A DNA stretch of 64,000 bases from Burkholderiales bacterium (GTDB taxonomy: Bacteria > Pseudomonadota > Gammaproteobacteria > Burkholderiales > WYBJ01), in the NCBI GenBank assembly GCA_022841915.1, contig JALHQN010000017.1:32377-96376 (forward strand), written 5' to 3'. Below the pieces are notes generated by a model. It was not told the origin of the DNA. It worked only from the letters and a program-made list of their open reading frames with translations, and did not search any database. Each line of letters starts with the position of its first letter. The stretch's first letter is position 1. This document shows positions 53,391 through 57,019 of this stretch, in pieces. Made by a program: the position numbers and the translations under genes.

Positions 53391-54395
53391 TCAGGCGTCG
53401 ATGGCCTCGAGTACCGCCGCGACACGTACCGCTGCTTGTTCGTTTCCTTGACGTGGCAAGGCATCGAAATCGCCTCGCAGCGCCTTGACTGCATACCGCT
53501 CGCGGGCAATCTCATGTGCAGTCCGCACGCCCAGGCGGCGGAAGACAGGGATGGGTGGGCACCAGCCCTGAACAGCATGCTGCCCGAGGAAAGCGAAGAC
53601 CGCGGCTGGCAACAGCAGGAATCTGCGGGACACCGAGATCCCAAGGAAGAGCCCAGTCCCGGCGATGATCGAGGCGTTCAGCTGCAGCACACGCTCGATA
53701 TCCCATTCGCGATCCAGTTCGTCGATGCGTCGAGCCGCTCGAGCGCTCTCGGCGTGGGCGAATTCGGCGAGCCGTGCATCCGTCTTTGCGCGAATCGCGG
53801 CATTGACGGCCGGGCCGGTATGCTCTTCGACGCGCGTCGTGGTCGGGGGAATGTGCAGCATCGAGGCAACCTGTCGCCAGCTCGGGACCGCTTGCGATCG
53901 CTCATCGAGATCTTCCTGATCCTCTTGGACGAGGCCCCTCCGAGCAGACGAGGTGCCGGTGGCCGTGCTGTATTCCACGGCGCTCTGCGATCCAGCGTTG
54001 ACCACGCCGAAGTCGCCTCGCAGCGCCTTGACCGCATAGCGCTCCCGCGCGATTTCGCGTGCGCTGCGAACTCCCAGTCGCCGGAACAAGCCCAGTAACG
54101 GGTACCAGCCGGTCAGAGCGTGCGTCAACAAGGAGCCGGCGACCATTGCGGGCAGGGCGAGGAATCCTCGGTGTACGAACACTCCCAATGCCAGTCCTAA
54201 GAGCCCGGTTGCAGAGGCTTCTGTTTCGATTGTGCGATCAGTGTCCCATTCATAAGCGAGGTTTCGCAGCTTGTTTTCTGAGTAGGCCGGATTGTTCGAC
54301 GCACATGCGTACAGGTTCGTACGCGTGTCGTCATCGATCCGCTGCCGCACCGAGGCGGCGGTATGGCGCTGCACACGATCGAGCTGCTGTTTCAT
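53391..54395 (-). CDS. membrane protein with two tandem DUF2892-like (YgaP-type) domains
   Basis: Two copies of EWD.(D/E)R...H A..GW.P...FRRLGVR(S/T)A.EIARERYAVKALRGDF. Confidence 0.75.
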   Translation of the reverse strand: MKQQLDRVQRHTAASVRQRIDDDTRTNLYACASNNPAYSENKLRNLAYEWDTDRTIETEASATGLLGLALGVFVHRGFLALPAMVAGSLLTHALTGWYPLLGLFRRLGVRSAREIARERYAVKALRGDFGVVNAGSQSAVEYSTATGTSSARRGLVQEDQEDLDERSQAVPSWRQVASMLHIPPTTTRVEEHTGPAVNAAIRAKTDARLAEFAHAESARAARRIDELDREWDIERVLQLNASIIAGTGLFLGISVSRRFLLLPAAVFAFLGQHAVQGWCPPIPVFRRLGVRTAHEIARERYAVKALRGDFDALPRQGNEQAAVRVAAVLEAIDA

Positions 54396-54663
54396 GGGAA
54401 CCTCTGCGTTGCGGGTGGGCGCGATGGGACGTGCAAACCGCGCGCCCGCTGCGACATGCGGGATCCCCGCTGATCCATCGCCAAGCGCCACCGGGTCGGC
54501 ATCCGGACGGCGATTCAGATCATGCTGCACCGCGGGACATGCGCCTCCGGGGCGGTCCAATCCGTGGGACGTTCCCTCTTGTCAGTCCGCGAGGCGCCGA
54601 ATCGAGCGTTGCCTCCTGCAAGCAGGAATTGACGTTCGCGCGTCGAGCGCCTAGGCTTCGCGC

Positions 54664-55542
54664 ATGGACATACGATTTCGTGGACTACATCCCTTGTTCG
54701 CCGCCGAAGTAGAGGGCGTCGATCTCAGGGCAGCCGAGTCGTGCGATATCCTCGAGCGGGTACGCGCCGGCATGGACCAATATGCGGTCCTCGTGTTTCG
54801 GGGGCAGCCACTGACCGATGCCGATCAGCTCGCTTTTGCGCAGCGCCTCGACGGTACGCTCCATAGCAAGACAGGCATCAGCGCGTTGCAGAAGAGTCGC
54901 TTGGGTAACGAGGCGCTCACGGACATCTCGAACGTCACGGACACCGGCGATATCATGGCGCGGGAAGACAGGCGGCGGGCCTACAGCTTGGCCAACCGCT
55001 TGTGGCATGCCGATGCGACTTTTCAGGATCCGCCAGGGCGTTACTCGATGCTGCACGCGCGAGTCGTGCCTCCAGCCGGCGCCGATACGGAATTCGCCGA
55101 TGAGCGAGCGGCCTACGATGAGCTTCCCGAAGTCGTCAAGACGCAGATCGACGGCCTGCAGGCGCATCATTCGATTGCTTACTCACGCCAAACGCTCGGT
55201 TTCGAGTTCTCGGAGGACGAGAAAGAGCAGCTCAAGGGAGCGATACATCCCCTCGTACGCACCATGCCTCGGACCGGCCGAAAGACGCTTTACCTCGCTT
55301 CGCATGCTTTTCGCATCATCGGTTGGCCGGTGCCGGATGCACGTCTGCTGCTGCGAGATCTCATGGAGCACGCAACCCAGCGCAAGTTCGTGTATCGGCA
55401 TGCCTGGCAAGTCGGGGATCTCGTCATATGGGACAACCGCTGCACCATGCATCGTGCCACTCCGTTCGAGGATGCTCGCTTCAAGCGCGAACTGCGTCGA
55501 GTGACGACGCTGGATATCGATCGGGTAGCGGTCGCTGGCTGA
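54664..55542 (+). CDS. TauD/TfdA family Fe(II)/2-oxoglutarate dioxygenase (TfdA-like)
   Basis: DISN, WHADATF (HxD), TEFAD, HSIAYSR, WDNRCTMHR. Confidence 0.88.
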   Translation: MDIRFRGLHPLFAAEVEGVDLRAAESCDILERVRAGMDQYAVLVFRGQPLTDADQLAFAQRLDGTLHSKTGISALQKSRLGNEALTDISNVTDTGDIMAREDRRRAYSLANRLWHADATFQDPPGRYSMLHARVVPPAGADTEFADERAAYDELPEVVKTQIDGLQAHHSIAYSRQTLGFEFSEDEKEQLKGAIHPLVRTMPRTGRKTLYLASHAFRIIGWPVPDARLLLRDLMEHATQRKFVYRHAWQVGDLVIWDNRCTMHRATPFEDARFKRELRRVTTLDIDRVAVAG

Positions 55543-55627
55543 TCTTCGAAAAGAGGTCAGCCTGCAGCCCTTGGCGGGGAAGACGGCAGGCCATGCCGGC
55601 TGATGCAGGACAGCCGGCATTTCGAGC

Positions 55628-55978
55628 CTACCGGCTCAACACCTGCTCGTAGCGAGCTGGATCGAAGCCCACCAAGAGTTTCTTCTTGCCCGCCTCGATC
55701 ACGGGGCGCTTGATGACACTGGGGAACTCGGCCATGAGCACCGCAGCCTTGGCGGCGTCCAAGTTTTGCTGGCGCTGCGGGGGCAGCTGGCGAAACGTGG
55801 TGCCTTTGGCGTTGACCAAGGTCTCCCAGCCCACTTCCTCGATCCAAGCGTGGATGCGCTCTGCCGGAGCGCCGAGTTTCTTGTAGTCGTGCAACTGGTA
55901 CTCGATGCCTTTGCCTTCGAGCCACGCGAAGGCCTTTTTCATGCTTGTTCAGTTGCGGATGCCGTAGACGGTGATCAT
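55628..55978 (-). CDS. YffB/ArsC(Spx)-family thioredoxin-fold protein, probably containing selenocysteine (UGA at codon 10)
   Basis: ATG 55978 with AGAGG RBS reads MITVYGIRN-TGA-TSMKKAFAWL...HDYKK..N.KGTTFR..PSVIKRPV; downstream hairpin 55913-55933. Confidence 0.8.
55913..55933 (-). promoter_or_regulatory. candidate bacterial SECIS element
   Basis: GCCUUCG-CGUGGCU-CGAAGGC stem-loop starting 15 nt after the UGA, with G-U at loop positions 2-3. Confidence 0.6.
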
Positions 55979-56359
55979 CTTCTTCCTCTCTTCGGTGGTG
56001 GAACGATTTGTCAGTTGCCGGATGTCACGCCCGCTGCCTTGCGATCTTGGCTCATTTGGCGATTTCGGATCTGACATAGGCCTGGAAGTCGGTCGGCGGC
56101 ATCGAGCGCTCCTCCAGACCGAACGCGAACGCAGCCACCGCGACAGCTCGCGAACAGGCTGGATGTCATCGGTGCTTTTCACGAAAGTGCTGGGTCGGTA
56201 GCCCTCGCTGGCGGACGACTGCCACGACTGTACCGCAAGCAGTCAGCATCGAGCCAGCTTCGTGTAAGTCATGGAGGGCGGTGATCGGGGGTGGATTAAC
56301 ATTCGTACTGCCGCGCTTGCTCAGACTGGCGTCTCTTCTTGAAGGGGTCGTTGCGCTCG

Positions 56360-57019
56360 ATGAACACAAGATTCGCCTGGGGAATCGTTTGCACCATCGT
56401 GGTCGGGCTGGCTATCGACGCCCATGGGGCAGCTTGGAGTCAGCCGAGCGTGAACGTCCTTGCGGCCGTCATGTTCGGCGCGCTACTTCGGGCGAGTTCC
56501 TCCGCGGATCGAATTTCGTACCTCGTCTGCTTGGTGCTTGCAACCGTGGGTGAGGTGTTCTTGGCATTGATCTGGGGCCTCTATGATTACCGGCTCGGGA
56601 ATCTGCCGCTGTTCGTGCCGCCCGGCCATGTGCTGTTGTACGCGCTCGGCCGTTGGCTGGCTGATCGTGTCCCCATGCGTGCGTGCATCGTGGTGTGCGC
56701 GTTGGTGGTGCTCGCGGGTGGCATTCTTGCTTTCGAGGGAAGCGACGAGTTGAGCGCCCCCCTGGCGCTGCTGTTTCTCCTGTGCATGCGCTATGGGCCG
56801 GCGCCCCGGCTCTATGCCGTCATGTTCGTGCTGGCATTGGCGATGGAGCTGCTCGGCACAGGCCTGGGGAATTGGACTTGGCGACCCGAGACGCCCTGGT
56901 TCCATTGGAGCACACTCAATCCGCCGTTCGCGGCCGGTGCGTTTTACTGCGTGCTCGATCTGCTGGTCGGTAAGTGGGGAAGGGCGAATGGCGCATCGCT
57001 CGCTCGCGCGAAAATTTAG
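56360..57019 (+). CDS. hypothetical multi-pass membrane protein
   Basis: Hydrophobic helices, YRLGNLPLFVPPGH and MELLGTGLGNWTW segments. Confidence 0.7.
   Translation: MNTRFAWGIVCTIVVGLAIDAHGAAWSQPSVNVLAAVMFGALLRASSSADRISYLVCLVLATVGEVFLALIWGLYDYRLGNLPLFVPPGHVLLYALGRWLADRVPMRACIVVCALVVLAGGILAFEGSDELSAPLALLFLLCMRYGPAPRLYAVMFVLALAMELLGTGLGNWTWRPETPWFHWSTLNPPFAAGAFYCVLDLLVGKWGRANGASLARAKI

What the first reader, a model, noticed from the sequence alone, without database searches (positions are those of the whole stretch)
55628..55978. Hidden selenoprotein: YffB/ArsC-Spx family gene with UGA at the active-site Cys and a SECIS-like hairpin
Seen: the ORF track splits this into 55949..56182 and 55628..55942, but the two are in the same frame. 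ATG 55978 (RBS AGAGG) reads ATG ATC ACC GTC TAC GGC ATC CGC AAC TGA ACA AGC ATG AAA AAG = MITVYGIRN-U-TSMKK. A perfect 7-bp stem GCCUUCG/CGAAGGC starts 15 nt after the UGA, with loop CGUGGCU. Established: YffB proteins read YGIKNCDTxKKA, so the UGA sits exactly on the redox Cys. Bacterial SECIS elements lie just 3' of the UGA with a G (often GU) early in the apical loop. The U-T-S context resembles the Spx C-T-S-C motif rather than YffB C-D-T, and there is no resolving Cys. Inference: a Sec-dependent thiol/arsenate-type oxidoreductase. ArsC-like selenoproteins have been described in general, but standard annotation would miss this one, and it implies Sec use in this lineage.
Basis: partly seen in the sequence, partly recalled or inferred. 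Interest (0 to 1): 0.85.

Follow-up and report, generated by a model that had tools for sequence, protein, structure and literature searches.

The report
Unannotated selenocysteine form of YffB reductase
A small redox-protein gene that looks broken by a stop codon most likely reads that stop as the rare amino acid selenocysteine, in a whole clade of environmental Burkholderiales, and gene callers routinely cut it short.

Summary
Window 55978..55628 (-) is one 116-codon frame, with TGA at codon 10 (55951..55949). A perfect 7-bp hairpin, GCCUUCG/CGUGGCU/CGAAGGC (55933..55913), starts 15 nt after the TGA.

With Cys at the TGA, the protein passes the curated YffB model (NF008107). Its model superposes on YffB PA3664 (TM 0.94). 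The TGA aligns with YffB's single active-site Cys.

The genome has selA, selB, tRNA-Sec and selD. It also has two other TGA-containing genes, fdhA and selD itself.

I found 43 distinct relatives, in at least 19 species-level genomes plus metagenome contigs. All keep the TGA.
- All 40 that could be scored keep the hairpin at 7/7 pairs.
- Five of the six degenerate hairpin codons are frozen, against 1 of 84 elsewhere.
- One pair varies as U-A, U-G and C-G.
- None of 42 Cys-form relatives has the hairpin.
- selB is present in 15 of 16 carrier genomes, against 26 of 101 in the order.

The hairpin meets all four published bacterial SECIS criteria.

This is a real selenoprotein gene rather than a pseudogene or an assembly error. 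It is a new subfamily of a known kind. Selenium insertion itself is not shown.

The parts
55628..55978 (-). Full Sec-YffB coding sequence: 116 codons plus TAG stop, with UGA read as selenocysteine at codon 10.
   Evidence: Translation. NF008107 scores 124.5 bits against a cut-off of 121, and Pfam ArsC gives 4.6e-19. The model has pLDDT 93.8 and TM 0.94 to 1RW1.
55949..55951 (-). In-frame UGA (codon 10), the proposed Sec codon. It lies in G6-x3-U10-x3-K14, at the position of YffB's only Cys.
   Evidence: It aligns with Cys in 2KOK and 1RW1. TGA is present in 36 of 36 full-length relatives and in all 43 distinct sequences. Contigs of runs X1 and X3 show no difference here.
55913..55933 (-). SECIS-like hairpin inside codons 16-22 (A F A W L E G). 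The 5' arm is 55933..55927, the loop CGUGGCU is 55926..55920, and the 3' arm is 55919..55913.
   Evidence: MFE is -10.5 kcal/mol. It meets the four bSECIS criteria quoted in PMC13188914. All 266 cells pair, and pair 4 is U-A 34, U-G 3, C-G 1. Synonymous sites are frozen. The hairpin is absent from 42 Cys forms.
55982..55990 (-). Shine-Dalgarno-like GAGAGGAAG ahead of ATG 55978.
   Evidence: Sequence. An SD-like 4-mer precedes codon 1 in 34 of 42 relatives, but precedes codon 13 in only 1 of 42.
55940..55942 (-). Met13 ATG, where gene callers start the truncated 104-aa ORF. I do not take it to be the real start.
   Evidence: ORF list. P0001 is this 104-aa ORF in the protein collection. Codons 1-9 are conserved as protein while varying synonymously.

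Best explanation
The gene encodes a YffB-subfamily protein of the ArsC/Spx/YffB thioredoxin-fold superfamily. Its single active-site cysteine is replaced by selenocysteine.

Proposed mechanism:
- Translation starts at ATG 55978.
- At UGA codon 10, SelB carrying Sec-tRNA(Sec) is recruited by the hairpin 15 nt downstream. That hairpin is built from codons 16-22.
- Sec is inserted and the 116-residue protein is completed.
- The selenolate sits at the N-terminus of helix alpha-1, between strand 2-6 and helix 11-22. It probably acts as the lone nucleophile of a glutathione-dependent reductase.

What is shown here: the frame, the family, the fold, the alignment of UGA with the Cys, the Sec machinery in the genome, and conservation of the UGA and hairpin with frozen synonymous sites.

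What is inferred: actual Sec insertion, SelB binding to this hairpin, and the glutathione-dependent chemistry. The last rests on published work on Cys-type YffB (PMC3169414, passages read).
For: (1) Family and site.
- NF008107 scores over its cut-off.
- phmmer gives 1.4e-34 to 2KOK and 5.2e-29 to 1RW1, with the UGA column on their Cys.
- The AF2 model has pLDDT 93.8, with TM 0.94 and rmsd 1.0 A to 1RW1.

(2) Machinery in the same genome.
- selA, selB, tRNA-Sec (75 bits; ARAGORN anticodon tca) and selD are present.
- fdhA and selD each carry an in-frame TGA followed by a hairpin.

(3) No Cys paralogue. The TGA gene is the only YffB match in the genome.

(4) Conservation.
- TGA at codon 10 occurs in 4 of 5 same-genus genomes at 63-73% identity.
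- It occurs in 17 of 19 pattern hits in species genomes and 27 of 31 in metagenomes.
- That makes 43 distinct sequences.

(5) Hairpin.
- 40 of 40 distinct Sec forms pair 7/7, with median MFE -10.6. Among 42 Cys forms, 0-5 of 7 positions pair, with median MFE -5.2.
- 5 of 6 degenerate hairpin codons use a single codon in 36 sequences. Only 1 of 84 degenerate codons elsewhere does.
- L106 has a compensatory U-A to C-G change.

(6) The real start is codon 1.
- Codons 1-9 are conserved as protein while changing synonymously.
- The SD-like motif lies before codon 1, not before codon 13.

(7) Link to the Sec system. selB is present in 15 of 16 carrier genomes, against 26 of 101 order genomes.

(8) Phylogeny. 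All 35 Sec rows fall in one clade of 40 rows with SH-aLRT 96.

(9) All four bSECIS model criteria are met.
Against: - No direct evidence of selenium insertion or of the protein exists.
- Covariation is thin. Only one of seven pairs varies, and 63 of 500 shuffles reach the observed score. The case therefore rests on conservation, and conservation could in principle reflect another RNA or DNA constraint.
- No Rfam family matched the region.
- The hairpin lacks the bulged U of the E. coli fdhF element. This point is recalled from memory and comes from no call.
- Thermodynamic stability alone is unremarkable.
- One carrier genome, G410, showed no selB at E<=1e-60. It is a MAG of unstated completeness.
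- Some copies look decayed: the G002 remnant, a TAA at codon 27 in L091, and a frameshift in L090.
- Most sequences were found with a pattern that required the TGA. That pattern fixed only 2 of the 21 hairpin bases.
Confidence: 0.9

Rival explanations
1. It is a pseudogene. A nonsense mutation (TGC or TGT to TGA) at the Cys codon killed the gene.
For: A Cys codon is one base change away from TGA. A few relatives do look decayed: the G002 5'-truncated remnant, and L091 and L090.
Against: - The TGA is kept in 43 distinct sequences down to about 59% protein identity. The frame stays open on both sides, and changes are mainly synonymous.
- It is the only YffB copy in the genome.
- The downstream hairpin is specific to the TGA forms.
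Confidence: 0.03
2. The real product is the 104-aa protein from Met13. Codons 1-9 plus the TGA form a short leader peptide or are untranslated.
For: Gene callers choose this ORF: 88 of the 120 best database clusters are such truncated ORFs. Codon 13 is ATG in 41 and GTG in 2 of the 43 distinct sequences.
Against: - Such a product would lack strand beta-1 and the active-site residue.
- Codons 1-9 are conserved as M-x-x-x-Y-G-I-R/K-N, in frame, with synonymous variation.
- An SD-like motif precedes codon 1 in 34 of 42 sequences and codon 13 in 1 of 42.
Confidence: 0.03
3. The UGA is read through without selenium, for example by near-cognate tRNA inserting Trp or Cys. The hairpin only slows termination.
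For: Nothing here shows selenium in the protein. Stop-codon read-through stimulated by downstream structure exists in other systems; this is recalled from memory and comes from no call.
Against: - The UGA sits exactly on the catalytic Cys. The nearest relatives and the five nested forms carry Cys there.
- Carriers almost always have selB.
- The loop fits the G[G|U] SECIS loop pattern.
Confidence: 0.03
4. The TGA is an assembly or sequencing error, and the hairpin serves the opposite strand as an intrinsic terminator.
For: The consensus scan lists the same hairpin on the + strand, 55913..55933, followed by CTTTTT.
Against: - Two runs give identical contigs at the TGA, though they may be the source of this DNA. 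A divergent co-occurring contig with 18 differences in 123 nt also keeps the TGA and the hairpin.
- More than 40 independent assemblies agree.
- The T-run is just the reverse complement of the Lys-Lys codons that all YffB proteins have.
- The hairpin follows the TGA across loci with different neighbours.
Confidence: 0.01

Closest known systems
YffB (PA3664 of Pseudomonas aeruginosa, PDB 1RW1; Bm-YffB of Brucella melitensis, PDB 2KOK); NCBIfam NF008107 'ArsC family reductase'
   Same: Same subfamily model, over its cut-off. Same fold, with TM 0.94 to 1RW1. Same G-x3-[C/U]-x3-K motif with a single nucleophile and no second Cys. Similar length of about 115 aa.
   Different: The nucleophile codon is UGA instead of TGC or TGT. 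Residue 11 is mostly S or T rather than D. Residues 16-22 are fixed as AFAWLEG by the RNA hairpin.
'Arsenate reductase' selenoproteins of marine metagenomes (COG1393/pfam03960, motif UxxS; mapped to TIGR00014 in the 2026 review)
   Same: Same superfamily, with Sec in place of the N-terminal catalytic Cys, found by computation (PMC1088965, PMC2398784 and PMC13188914; passages read).
   Different: The window protein scores only 24.1 bits on TIGR00014 (cut-off 106.05). Its motif is U-x-x-M/V, not UxxS. It comes from freshwater and soil-type Burkholderiales rather than marine samples. I could not see those proteins' sequences.
NF041106 'ArsC family (seleno)protein' / 'arsenate reductase-like protein', motif UxxC
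   Same: An ArsC-superfamily selenoprotein already curated at NCBI and listed in reviews.
   Different: The window protein scores 23.1 bits against a cut-off of 85. It has no Cys at U+3 and no Cys anywhere.
Bacterial SECIS consensus model (bSECISearch model as quoted in PMC13188914)
   Same: Loop of 7 nt (3-9 allowed). Stem of 7 bp (4-16 allowed). G at loop position 2 followed by U, with C1 and G5 able to pair (pattern N1-G-[G|U]-N-N2-N0-2). 22 nt from UGA to loop (16-37 allowed). MFE -10.5 (limit -7.5).
   Different: No match to any Rfam family. Binding by this lineage's SelB is untested.

Membership tests
YffB subfamily (NCBIfam NF008107 / PRK10853, 'ArsC family reductase') | Whole-protein HMM score above the curated cut-off | tested here: met
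   124.5 bits against a cut-off of 121, with Cys substituted at the UGA. This is only just above the cut-off.
YffB subfamily (NCBIfam NF008107 / PRK10853, 'ArsC family reductase') | Thioredoxin-like alpha/beta domain plus helical bundle, as in 1RW1 and 2KOK | tested here: met
   The model has pLDDT 93.8. Foldseek gives 1RW1 E 1.1e-14, TM 0.94, rmsd 1.0 A over 114 columns, and 2KOK TM 0.76.
YffB subfamily (NCBIfam NF008107 / PRK10853, 'ArsC family reductase') | Single nucleophile in the G-x3-C-x3-K motif at the start of helix alpha-1 | tested here: met
   G6-I-R-N-U10-T-S-M-K14. The UGA column aligns with Cys of 2KOK and 1RW1. The motif is named in PMC3169414. The residue here is encoded by UGA, not by a Cys codon.
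YffB subfamily (NCBIfam NF008107 / PRK10853, 'ArsC family reductase') | Binds reduced glutathione next to the motif | not testable with these tools
   Reported for Bm-YffB and Pa-YffB (PMC3169414, passages). Not assessed for this protein.
Bacterial selenoprotein gene (SelB/SECIS-dependent UGA recoding) | In-frame UGA aligned with Cys in homologues | tested here: met
   All 69 Cys rows outside the Sec clade have C in that column.
Bacterial selenoprotein gene (SelB/SECIS-dependent UGA recoding) | Downstream stem-loop meeting the bSECIS model (loop 3-9 nt, stem 4-16 bp, G in first two loop positions, 16-37 nt spacing, MFE <= -7.5) | tested here: met
   Loop 7 nt (CGUGGCU), stem 7 bp, spacing 22 nt, MFE -10.5. 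Criteria are quoted from PMC13188914. I checked them by hand, not with bSECISearch.
Bacterial selenoprotein gene (SelB/SECIS-dependent UGA recoding) | selA, selB, selC and selD in the same genome | tested here: met
   All four score over their curated cut-offs.
Bacterial selenoprotein gene (SelB/SECIS-dependent UGA recoding) | UGA and SECIS conserved among orthologues, with structure-preserving change | tested here: met
   43 distinct sequences. 266 of 266 cells pair, and pair 4 is UA/UG/CG. Synonymous sites are frozen. Covariation alone is weak (63 of 500 shuffles).
Bacterial selenoprotein gene (SelB/SECIS-dependent UGA recoding) | Selenium actually incorporated at the UGA | not testable with these tools
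   Needs 75Se labelling or mass spectrometry.
ArsC, glutaredoxin-dependent arsenate reductase (TIGR00014) | HMM score above the curated cut-off | tested here: not met
   24.1 bits against a cut-off of 106.05.
NF041106 ArsC_rel_Se_1, 'ArsC family (seleno)protein' (UxxC) | HMM score above the cut-off, and a Cys three residues after Sec | tested here: not met
   23.1 bits against a cut-off of 85. There is no Cys in the protein.
Spx transcriptional regulator | Spx model over its cut-off, and a CxxC redox pair | tested here: not met
   NF002459 scores 42.3 against 123, NF009885 scores 33.1 against 152, and NF009210 scores 30 against 159. There is no second Cys. Only the broad subfamily model TIGR01617 passes (102 against 75.05).

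The most novel reading that the evidence does not exclude
Sec-YffB is a selenoprotein subfamily not yet described in print and not covered by NCBI's selenoprotein-aware models.
- It would be the first thiol-oxidoreductase-type selenoprotein seen in Burkholderiales, where early surveys found only FdhA.
- Its SECIS lies inside the coding sequence and has frozen a seven-residue peptide, AFAWLEG, across the whole clade.
- Five Cys forms nested within the clade suggest repeated Sec-to-Cys reversions.
- The natural Sec/Cys pair marks YffB's lone Cys as a catalytic redox nucleophile. That would help with the open question of what YffB does.
Probability: 0.6. Interest if true: 0.55.

Novelty: new member of a known kind. 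Interest (0 to 1): 0.45.

Why it matters
Annotation. The public protein collection holds this gene, and at least 87 related 90%-identity clusters, as N-terminally truncated ORFs. Sources name them 'arsenate reductase' or 'Spx/MgsR family transcriptional regulator', and the ORFs lack the active site. A selenoprotein-aware rule for NF008107 would correct them.

Biology. YffB is widespread: 276 of 401 sampled genomes of this order have a match. According to PMC3169414, its substrate and mechanism are still not worked out. A natural Sec/Cys pair at its lone Cys is an independent sign that this residue does redox catalysis. It also offers a more reactive natural variant for assays.

Evolution.
- The selenoproteome of Betaproteobacteria grows beyond FdhA, which was the only family reported there in 2006 (PMC1794560).
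- The case shows cleanly how a coding-region SECIS constrains protein sequence.
- Sec and Cys forms are interleaved within one clade.

Tried and rejected
- Rfam scan of 55500..56200 at E<=10 gave no SECIS family, only seven weak chance-level hits.
- The longer fold that pairs CAACUG with CAGUUG around the UGA is not conserved in the 41-sequence alignment. I dropped it.
- Covariation statistics cannot carry the case. Only 1 of 7 pairs varies, and 63 of 500 shuffles are as high.
- Synteny gave no link to selenium. The convergent TauD neighbour is kept in 11 of the other loci in the script's database, including four of the five same-genus genome loci (Pfam of neighbours).
- No sigma-70-like promoter was found in 55400..56400.
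- RNA evidence is weak. One 163-nt contig (55800..55962, 1 difference) from a single aquatic metatranscriptome sample, filed as X5 and X6, spans the TGA and the hairpin. It may be carried-over DNA and shows no start, end or expression level. X1 and X3 may be the source of this DNA, so they are not independent support.
Whether their hairpins have decayed is known only at protein level. P0010, P0013 and P0014 have changed the LEG residues; P0003 and P0009 have not.
- I did not scan the genome for further selenoprotein genes.
- bSECISearch itself was not available, so I applied its published criteria by hand.
- Novelty in print rests on four searches and on passages of PMC1794560, PMC2398784, PMC9312934, PMC13188914, PMC13326102, PMC1088965 and PMC2628731. 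The BSepDB website and the supplementary tables of these surveys may already list YffB-type entries.

Unpublished genomes.
- G004 (L024, same sequence as L066) is one of the four same-genus Sec forms. Every claim stands without it (then 3 of 4 same-genus genomes).
- G030 is one of the 26 selB-positive genomes in the baseline.

Full report
THE OBSERVATION

On the minus strand, ATG at 55978 opens a frame that reads MITVYGIRN, then TGA (55951..55949), then TSMKKAFAWLEG and on to a TAG stop at 55630..55628. That is 116 codons. The ORF list splits this frame at the TGA into 55949..56182 and 55628..55942.

Fifteen nucleotides after the TGA lies a perfect 7-bp hairpin, GCCUUCG / CGUGGCU / CGAAGGC (55933..55913). 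A purine-rich GAGAGGAAG precedes the ATG.

Taken alone, the hairpin is not striking in this GC-rich DNA. Its fold energy is -10.5 kcal/mol with z = -2.0, and 9 of 200 shuffles fold as well. The 66-nt fold has z = -1.4.

WHAT THE PROTEIN IS

With Cys placed at the TGA:
- The protein matches Pfam ArsC (4.6e-19).
- It passes the curated NCBIfam equivalog NF008107/PRK10853, 'ArsC family reductase', which is the YffB type. The score is 124.5 bits against a cut-off of 121.
- It fails the true arsenate reductase model TIGR00014 (24.1 against 106.05).
- It fails the Spx models (30-42 bits against 123-159).
- It fails the curated ArsC-like selenoprotein model NF041106 (23.1 against 85).

Against solved structures, the best sequence matches are the two YffB proteins: 2KOK (1.4e-34) and 1RW1 (5.2e-29). 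In both alignments the TGA column falls on their Cys, in Y-G-I-K-N-C-D-T-M-K-K-A.

An AlphaFold2 model built on a 39-sequence alignment has pLDDT 93.8. It superposes on 1RW1 with TM 0.94 and rmsd 1.0 A. Residue 10 lies between strand 2-6 and helix 11-22, the classic position of the thioredoxin-fold nucleophile.

The protein has no Cys at all. According to the Bm-YffB paper (PMC3169414, passages read):
- YffB has a single Cys in a G-x3-C-x3-K motif.
- It binds reduced glutathione beside that motif.
- It lacks the arginine triad of ArsC.
- It is thought to be a glutathione-dependent thiol reductase whose substrate is unknown.

DOES THE ORGANISM USE SELENOCYSTEINE?

The window lies on contig C17 of a 6.2-Mb, 66-contig genome that is 96% complete. 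Its relatives' records are titled Burkholderiales or Betaproteobacteria MAGs.

The genome holds the full Sec system, each part over its curated cut-off:
- selA (C1:633191-634555)
- selB (C1:634630-636525)
- tRNA-Sec just downstream (C1:637593-637683, 75 bits; ARAGORN anticodon tca)
- selD

Two other genes have an in-frame TGA at known Sec positions:
- selD itself reads SHGGG-TGA-GCK, with the TGA at C28:17983.
- A formate dehydrogenase alpha subunit has a TGA at C15:77159, followed after 12 nt by GUCCCC/GGUCU/GGGGAC.

The TGA gene is the only YffB homologue in the genome.

COMPARATIVE EVIDENCE

In five other genomes of the same genus, four (G001, G003, G004, G005) carry TGA at the same codon and an identical 21-nt hairpin. 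They are 63-73% identical by tblastn. The fifth, G002, keeps only a 5'-truncated remnant.

One genome from each of 35 other families of the order was also searched. Seven gave no match. None of the 32 matches listed for the other 28 contains a stop, and the 23 whose N-terminus I read have TGC or TGT at that codon and no hairpin.

A degenerate DNA pattern for Y-G-I-[R/K...]-N-TGA-x3-K-K-A(GC) was searched in two collections.
- Species genomes: 19 hits, of which 17 are full YffB genes and 2 are chance hits.
- Metagenome contigs: 31 hits, of which 27 are YffB genes and 4 are chance hits.

With the genus set this gives 49 loci and 43 distinct sequences. A sample of 401 genomes of the order gave 276 with a match at E<=1e-15. 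Among the roughly 150 listed matches, TGA forms occur only in family f1/genus g1 and in family f55/genus g125 (G237, G351). Another genus of f55 has Cys forms.

THE HAIRPIN

- In 41 aligned sequences (38 distinct rows) all 266 pair cells are standard pairs. Six pairs never vary. Pair 4 is U-A in 34, U-G in 3 and C-G in 1 (L106, a two-sided change that also turns Phe17 into Leu). As a covariation statistic this is weak, since 63 of 500 shuffles do as well.
- The strong signal is at synonymous sites. In 36 full-length sequences, five of the six degenerate hairpin codons use one codon only: GCC, TTC, GCG, CTC and GGC. The sixth is GAA in 32 and GAG in 4. Among 84 degenerate codons elsewhere in codons 1-97, only codon 6 is invariant.
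- The search pattern fixed just the first two bases of the hairpin.
- All 40 distinct Sec forms pair 7/7, with median MFE -10.6. In 42 Cys forms only 0-5 of the 7 equivalent positions pair, with median MFE -5.2.
- Against the consensus bacterial SECIS model quoted in a 2026 review (PMC13188914, passages), all four criteria are met. The loop is 7 nt (3-9 allowed). The stem is 7 bp (4-16 allowed). G is at loop position 2 followed by U, within C-G-U-G-G-C-U, which fits N1-G-[G|U]-N-N2-N0-2 with C1 and G5 able to pair. The spacing is 22 nt (16-37 allowed). MFE is -10.5 (limit -7.5).

WHERE TRANSLATION STARTS

Codon 1 is ATG in all 42 sequences that reach it. Codons 1-9 are conserved as M-[IVT]-x-[VIL]-Y-G-I-[RK]-N while their third positions vary. 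An SD-like 4-mer lies before codon 1 in 34 of 42 sequences, and before codon 13 in 1 of 42. The 104-aa ORF from Met13 is therefore an artefact of gene calling.

That artefact is common. The window's own product is stored as the 104-aa ORF (P0001). Of the 120 best clusters in the protein collection, 88 are such truncated ORFs and 32 are full-length Cys forms. The names that sources give proteins in this list are 'arsenate reductase', 'arsenate reductase (glutaredoxin)', 'ArsC family reductase' and 'Spx/MgsR family transcriptional regulator'.

LINK TO THE SEC SYSTEM, AND PHYLOGENY

selB scores over its cut-off in 15 of the 16 carrier genomes tested. The exception is G410. In an even sample of the order, 26 of 101 genomes at least 90% complete have selB. 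Many selB-positive genomes have the Cys form. Sec-YffB therefore implies Sec decoding, but Sec decoding does not imply Sec-YffB.

In a quick LG+G4 tree of 109 rows, all 35 Sec rows fall in one clade of 40 rows (SH-aLRT 96). The other five rows are Cys forms: P0003, P0009, P0010, P0013 and P0014. At least five changes of state are needed, although the starred branches alone are compatible with a single one. Three of the five nested Cys forms have altered the L-E-G residues that make up the 3' arm. No Sec form has.

The tree rests on 115 columns and many of its forks are open. The direction of the changes is not established.

READS

- Contigs of two DNA runs that may be the source of this assembly are identical to the window over the stretch.
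- A second, divergent contig in run X3 (18 differences in 123 nt) keeps both the TGA and the hairpin.
- One 163-nt contig from an RNA library of another study spans 55800..55962 with one difference. This is only a weak hint of transcription.

RIVAL EXPLANATIONS

A pseudogene, an assembly error, a Met13 start, selenium-free read-through and an antisense terminator are each contradicted by the comparative data, as set out in the rivals section. What remains unproven is the chemistry: that selenium is inserted, that SelB binds this hairpin, and what the enzyme reduces.

COMPARISON WITH THE LITERATURE

- ArsC-superfamily selenoproteins are known. These are 'arsenate reductase' with UxxS from the Sargasso Sea and GOS surveys (PMC1088965; PMC2398784), ArsC-like proteins of Deltaproteobacteria (PMC1794560), and a UxxC 'arsenate reductase-like' family.
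- The 2026 review maps these to TIGR00014 and NF041106. The window protein belongs to neither.
- That review's text contains none of NF008107, TIGR01617, PRK10853, cd03035, COG1393 or PF03960.
- A full-text search for YffB together with selenocysteine found one unrelated paper.
- In 2006 FdhA was the only selenoprotein family reported in Betaproteobacteria.
- Supplementary tables and the BSepDB website could not be checked (one search read passages only).

I therefore class this as a new member, a new subfamily, of a known kind.

VERDICT

This is a genuine, conserved and systematically mis-annotated selenoprotein gene. My confidence in that is about 0.9. It is of moderate interest.

Noticed in passing
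L010:1531-1533 (G000 C28:17983): The genome's own selD has an in-frame TGA, reading SHGGG-TGA-GCK. Selenophosphate synthetase here is apparently itself a selenoprotein. A candidate hairpin follows about 13 nt downstream.
   Followed up: partly
L052:2068-2070 (G000 C15:77159): The formate dehydrogenase alpha subunit has an in-frame TGA. After 12 nt comes GUCCCC/GGUCU/GGGGAC, a classic GGUC-type SECIS loop.
   Followed up: partly
L031:1492-1818 (-), genome G002: The same-genus genome G002 keeps only a remnant of the gene. Codons 1 to about 23 (start, TGA and hairpin) are replaced by unrelated sequence with an in-frame TAG. The invariant H-D-Y reads H-D-D. This looks like a decaying copy, or a misassembly in an 87%-complete MAG.
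   Followed up: partly
L091:72-143, L090:688-759, L102:8-79: Three metagenome copies look damaged. L091 has TAA at codon 27. L090 shifts frame near codon 86. L102 diverges after codon 34. These could be real decay or contig errors; I could not tell which.
   Followed up: no
proteins P0003, P0009, P0010, P0013, P0014: Five full-length Cys forms nest inside the Sec clade. Two still have AFAWLEG. Three have changed the LEG residues that encode the 3' arm of the hairpin. This suggests Sec-to-Cys reversions followed by loss of the SECIS constraint.
   Followed up: partly
window 55595-55618: An 8-bp inverted repeat, GCCGGCTG / CAGCCGGC, with an 8-nt loop lies just after the yffB stop. It sits between yffB and the convergent TauD gene (54664..55542 +). 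It may be a shared terminator hairpin, but it has no T-run.
   Followed up: no
window 55913-55933 (+ strand): The consensus scan calls the SECIS hairpin a terminator-like site on the opposite strand. The following CTTTTT is the reverse complement of the Lys-Lys codons.
   Followed up: yes
codon 11 (window 55946-55948): The residue after the nucleophile is Asp in most Cys-type YffB proteins (C-D-T-M). In Sec forms it is Ser (26 of 36), otherwise Thr or Gly. The base after the UGA is A in 40 of 41 sequences.
   Followed up: no
L060, L069, L071, L073: Four MAG records carrying the Sec form are titled 'Bordetella parapertussis'. Their Sec-YffB proteins sit in the tree among those from contigs titled Burkholderiales or Betaproteobacteria MAGs. 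The species names in the titles may be mislabels.
   Followed up: no
window 56339-57019 (+) and 53391-54560 (-): The 226-aa ORF upstream of yffB is hydrophobic and looks like a membrane protein to the eye. It has no Pfam match. The 389-aa ORF at 53391..54560 also has none. The 226-aa ORF is conserved next to yffB in the closest relatives (L106, L022, L089).
   Followed up: no
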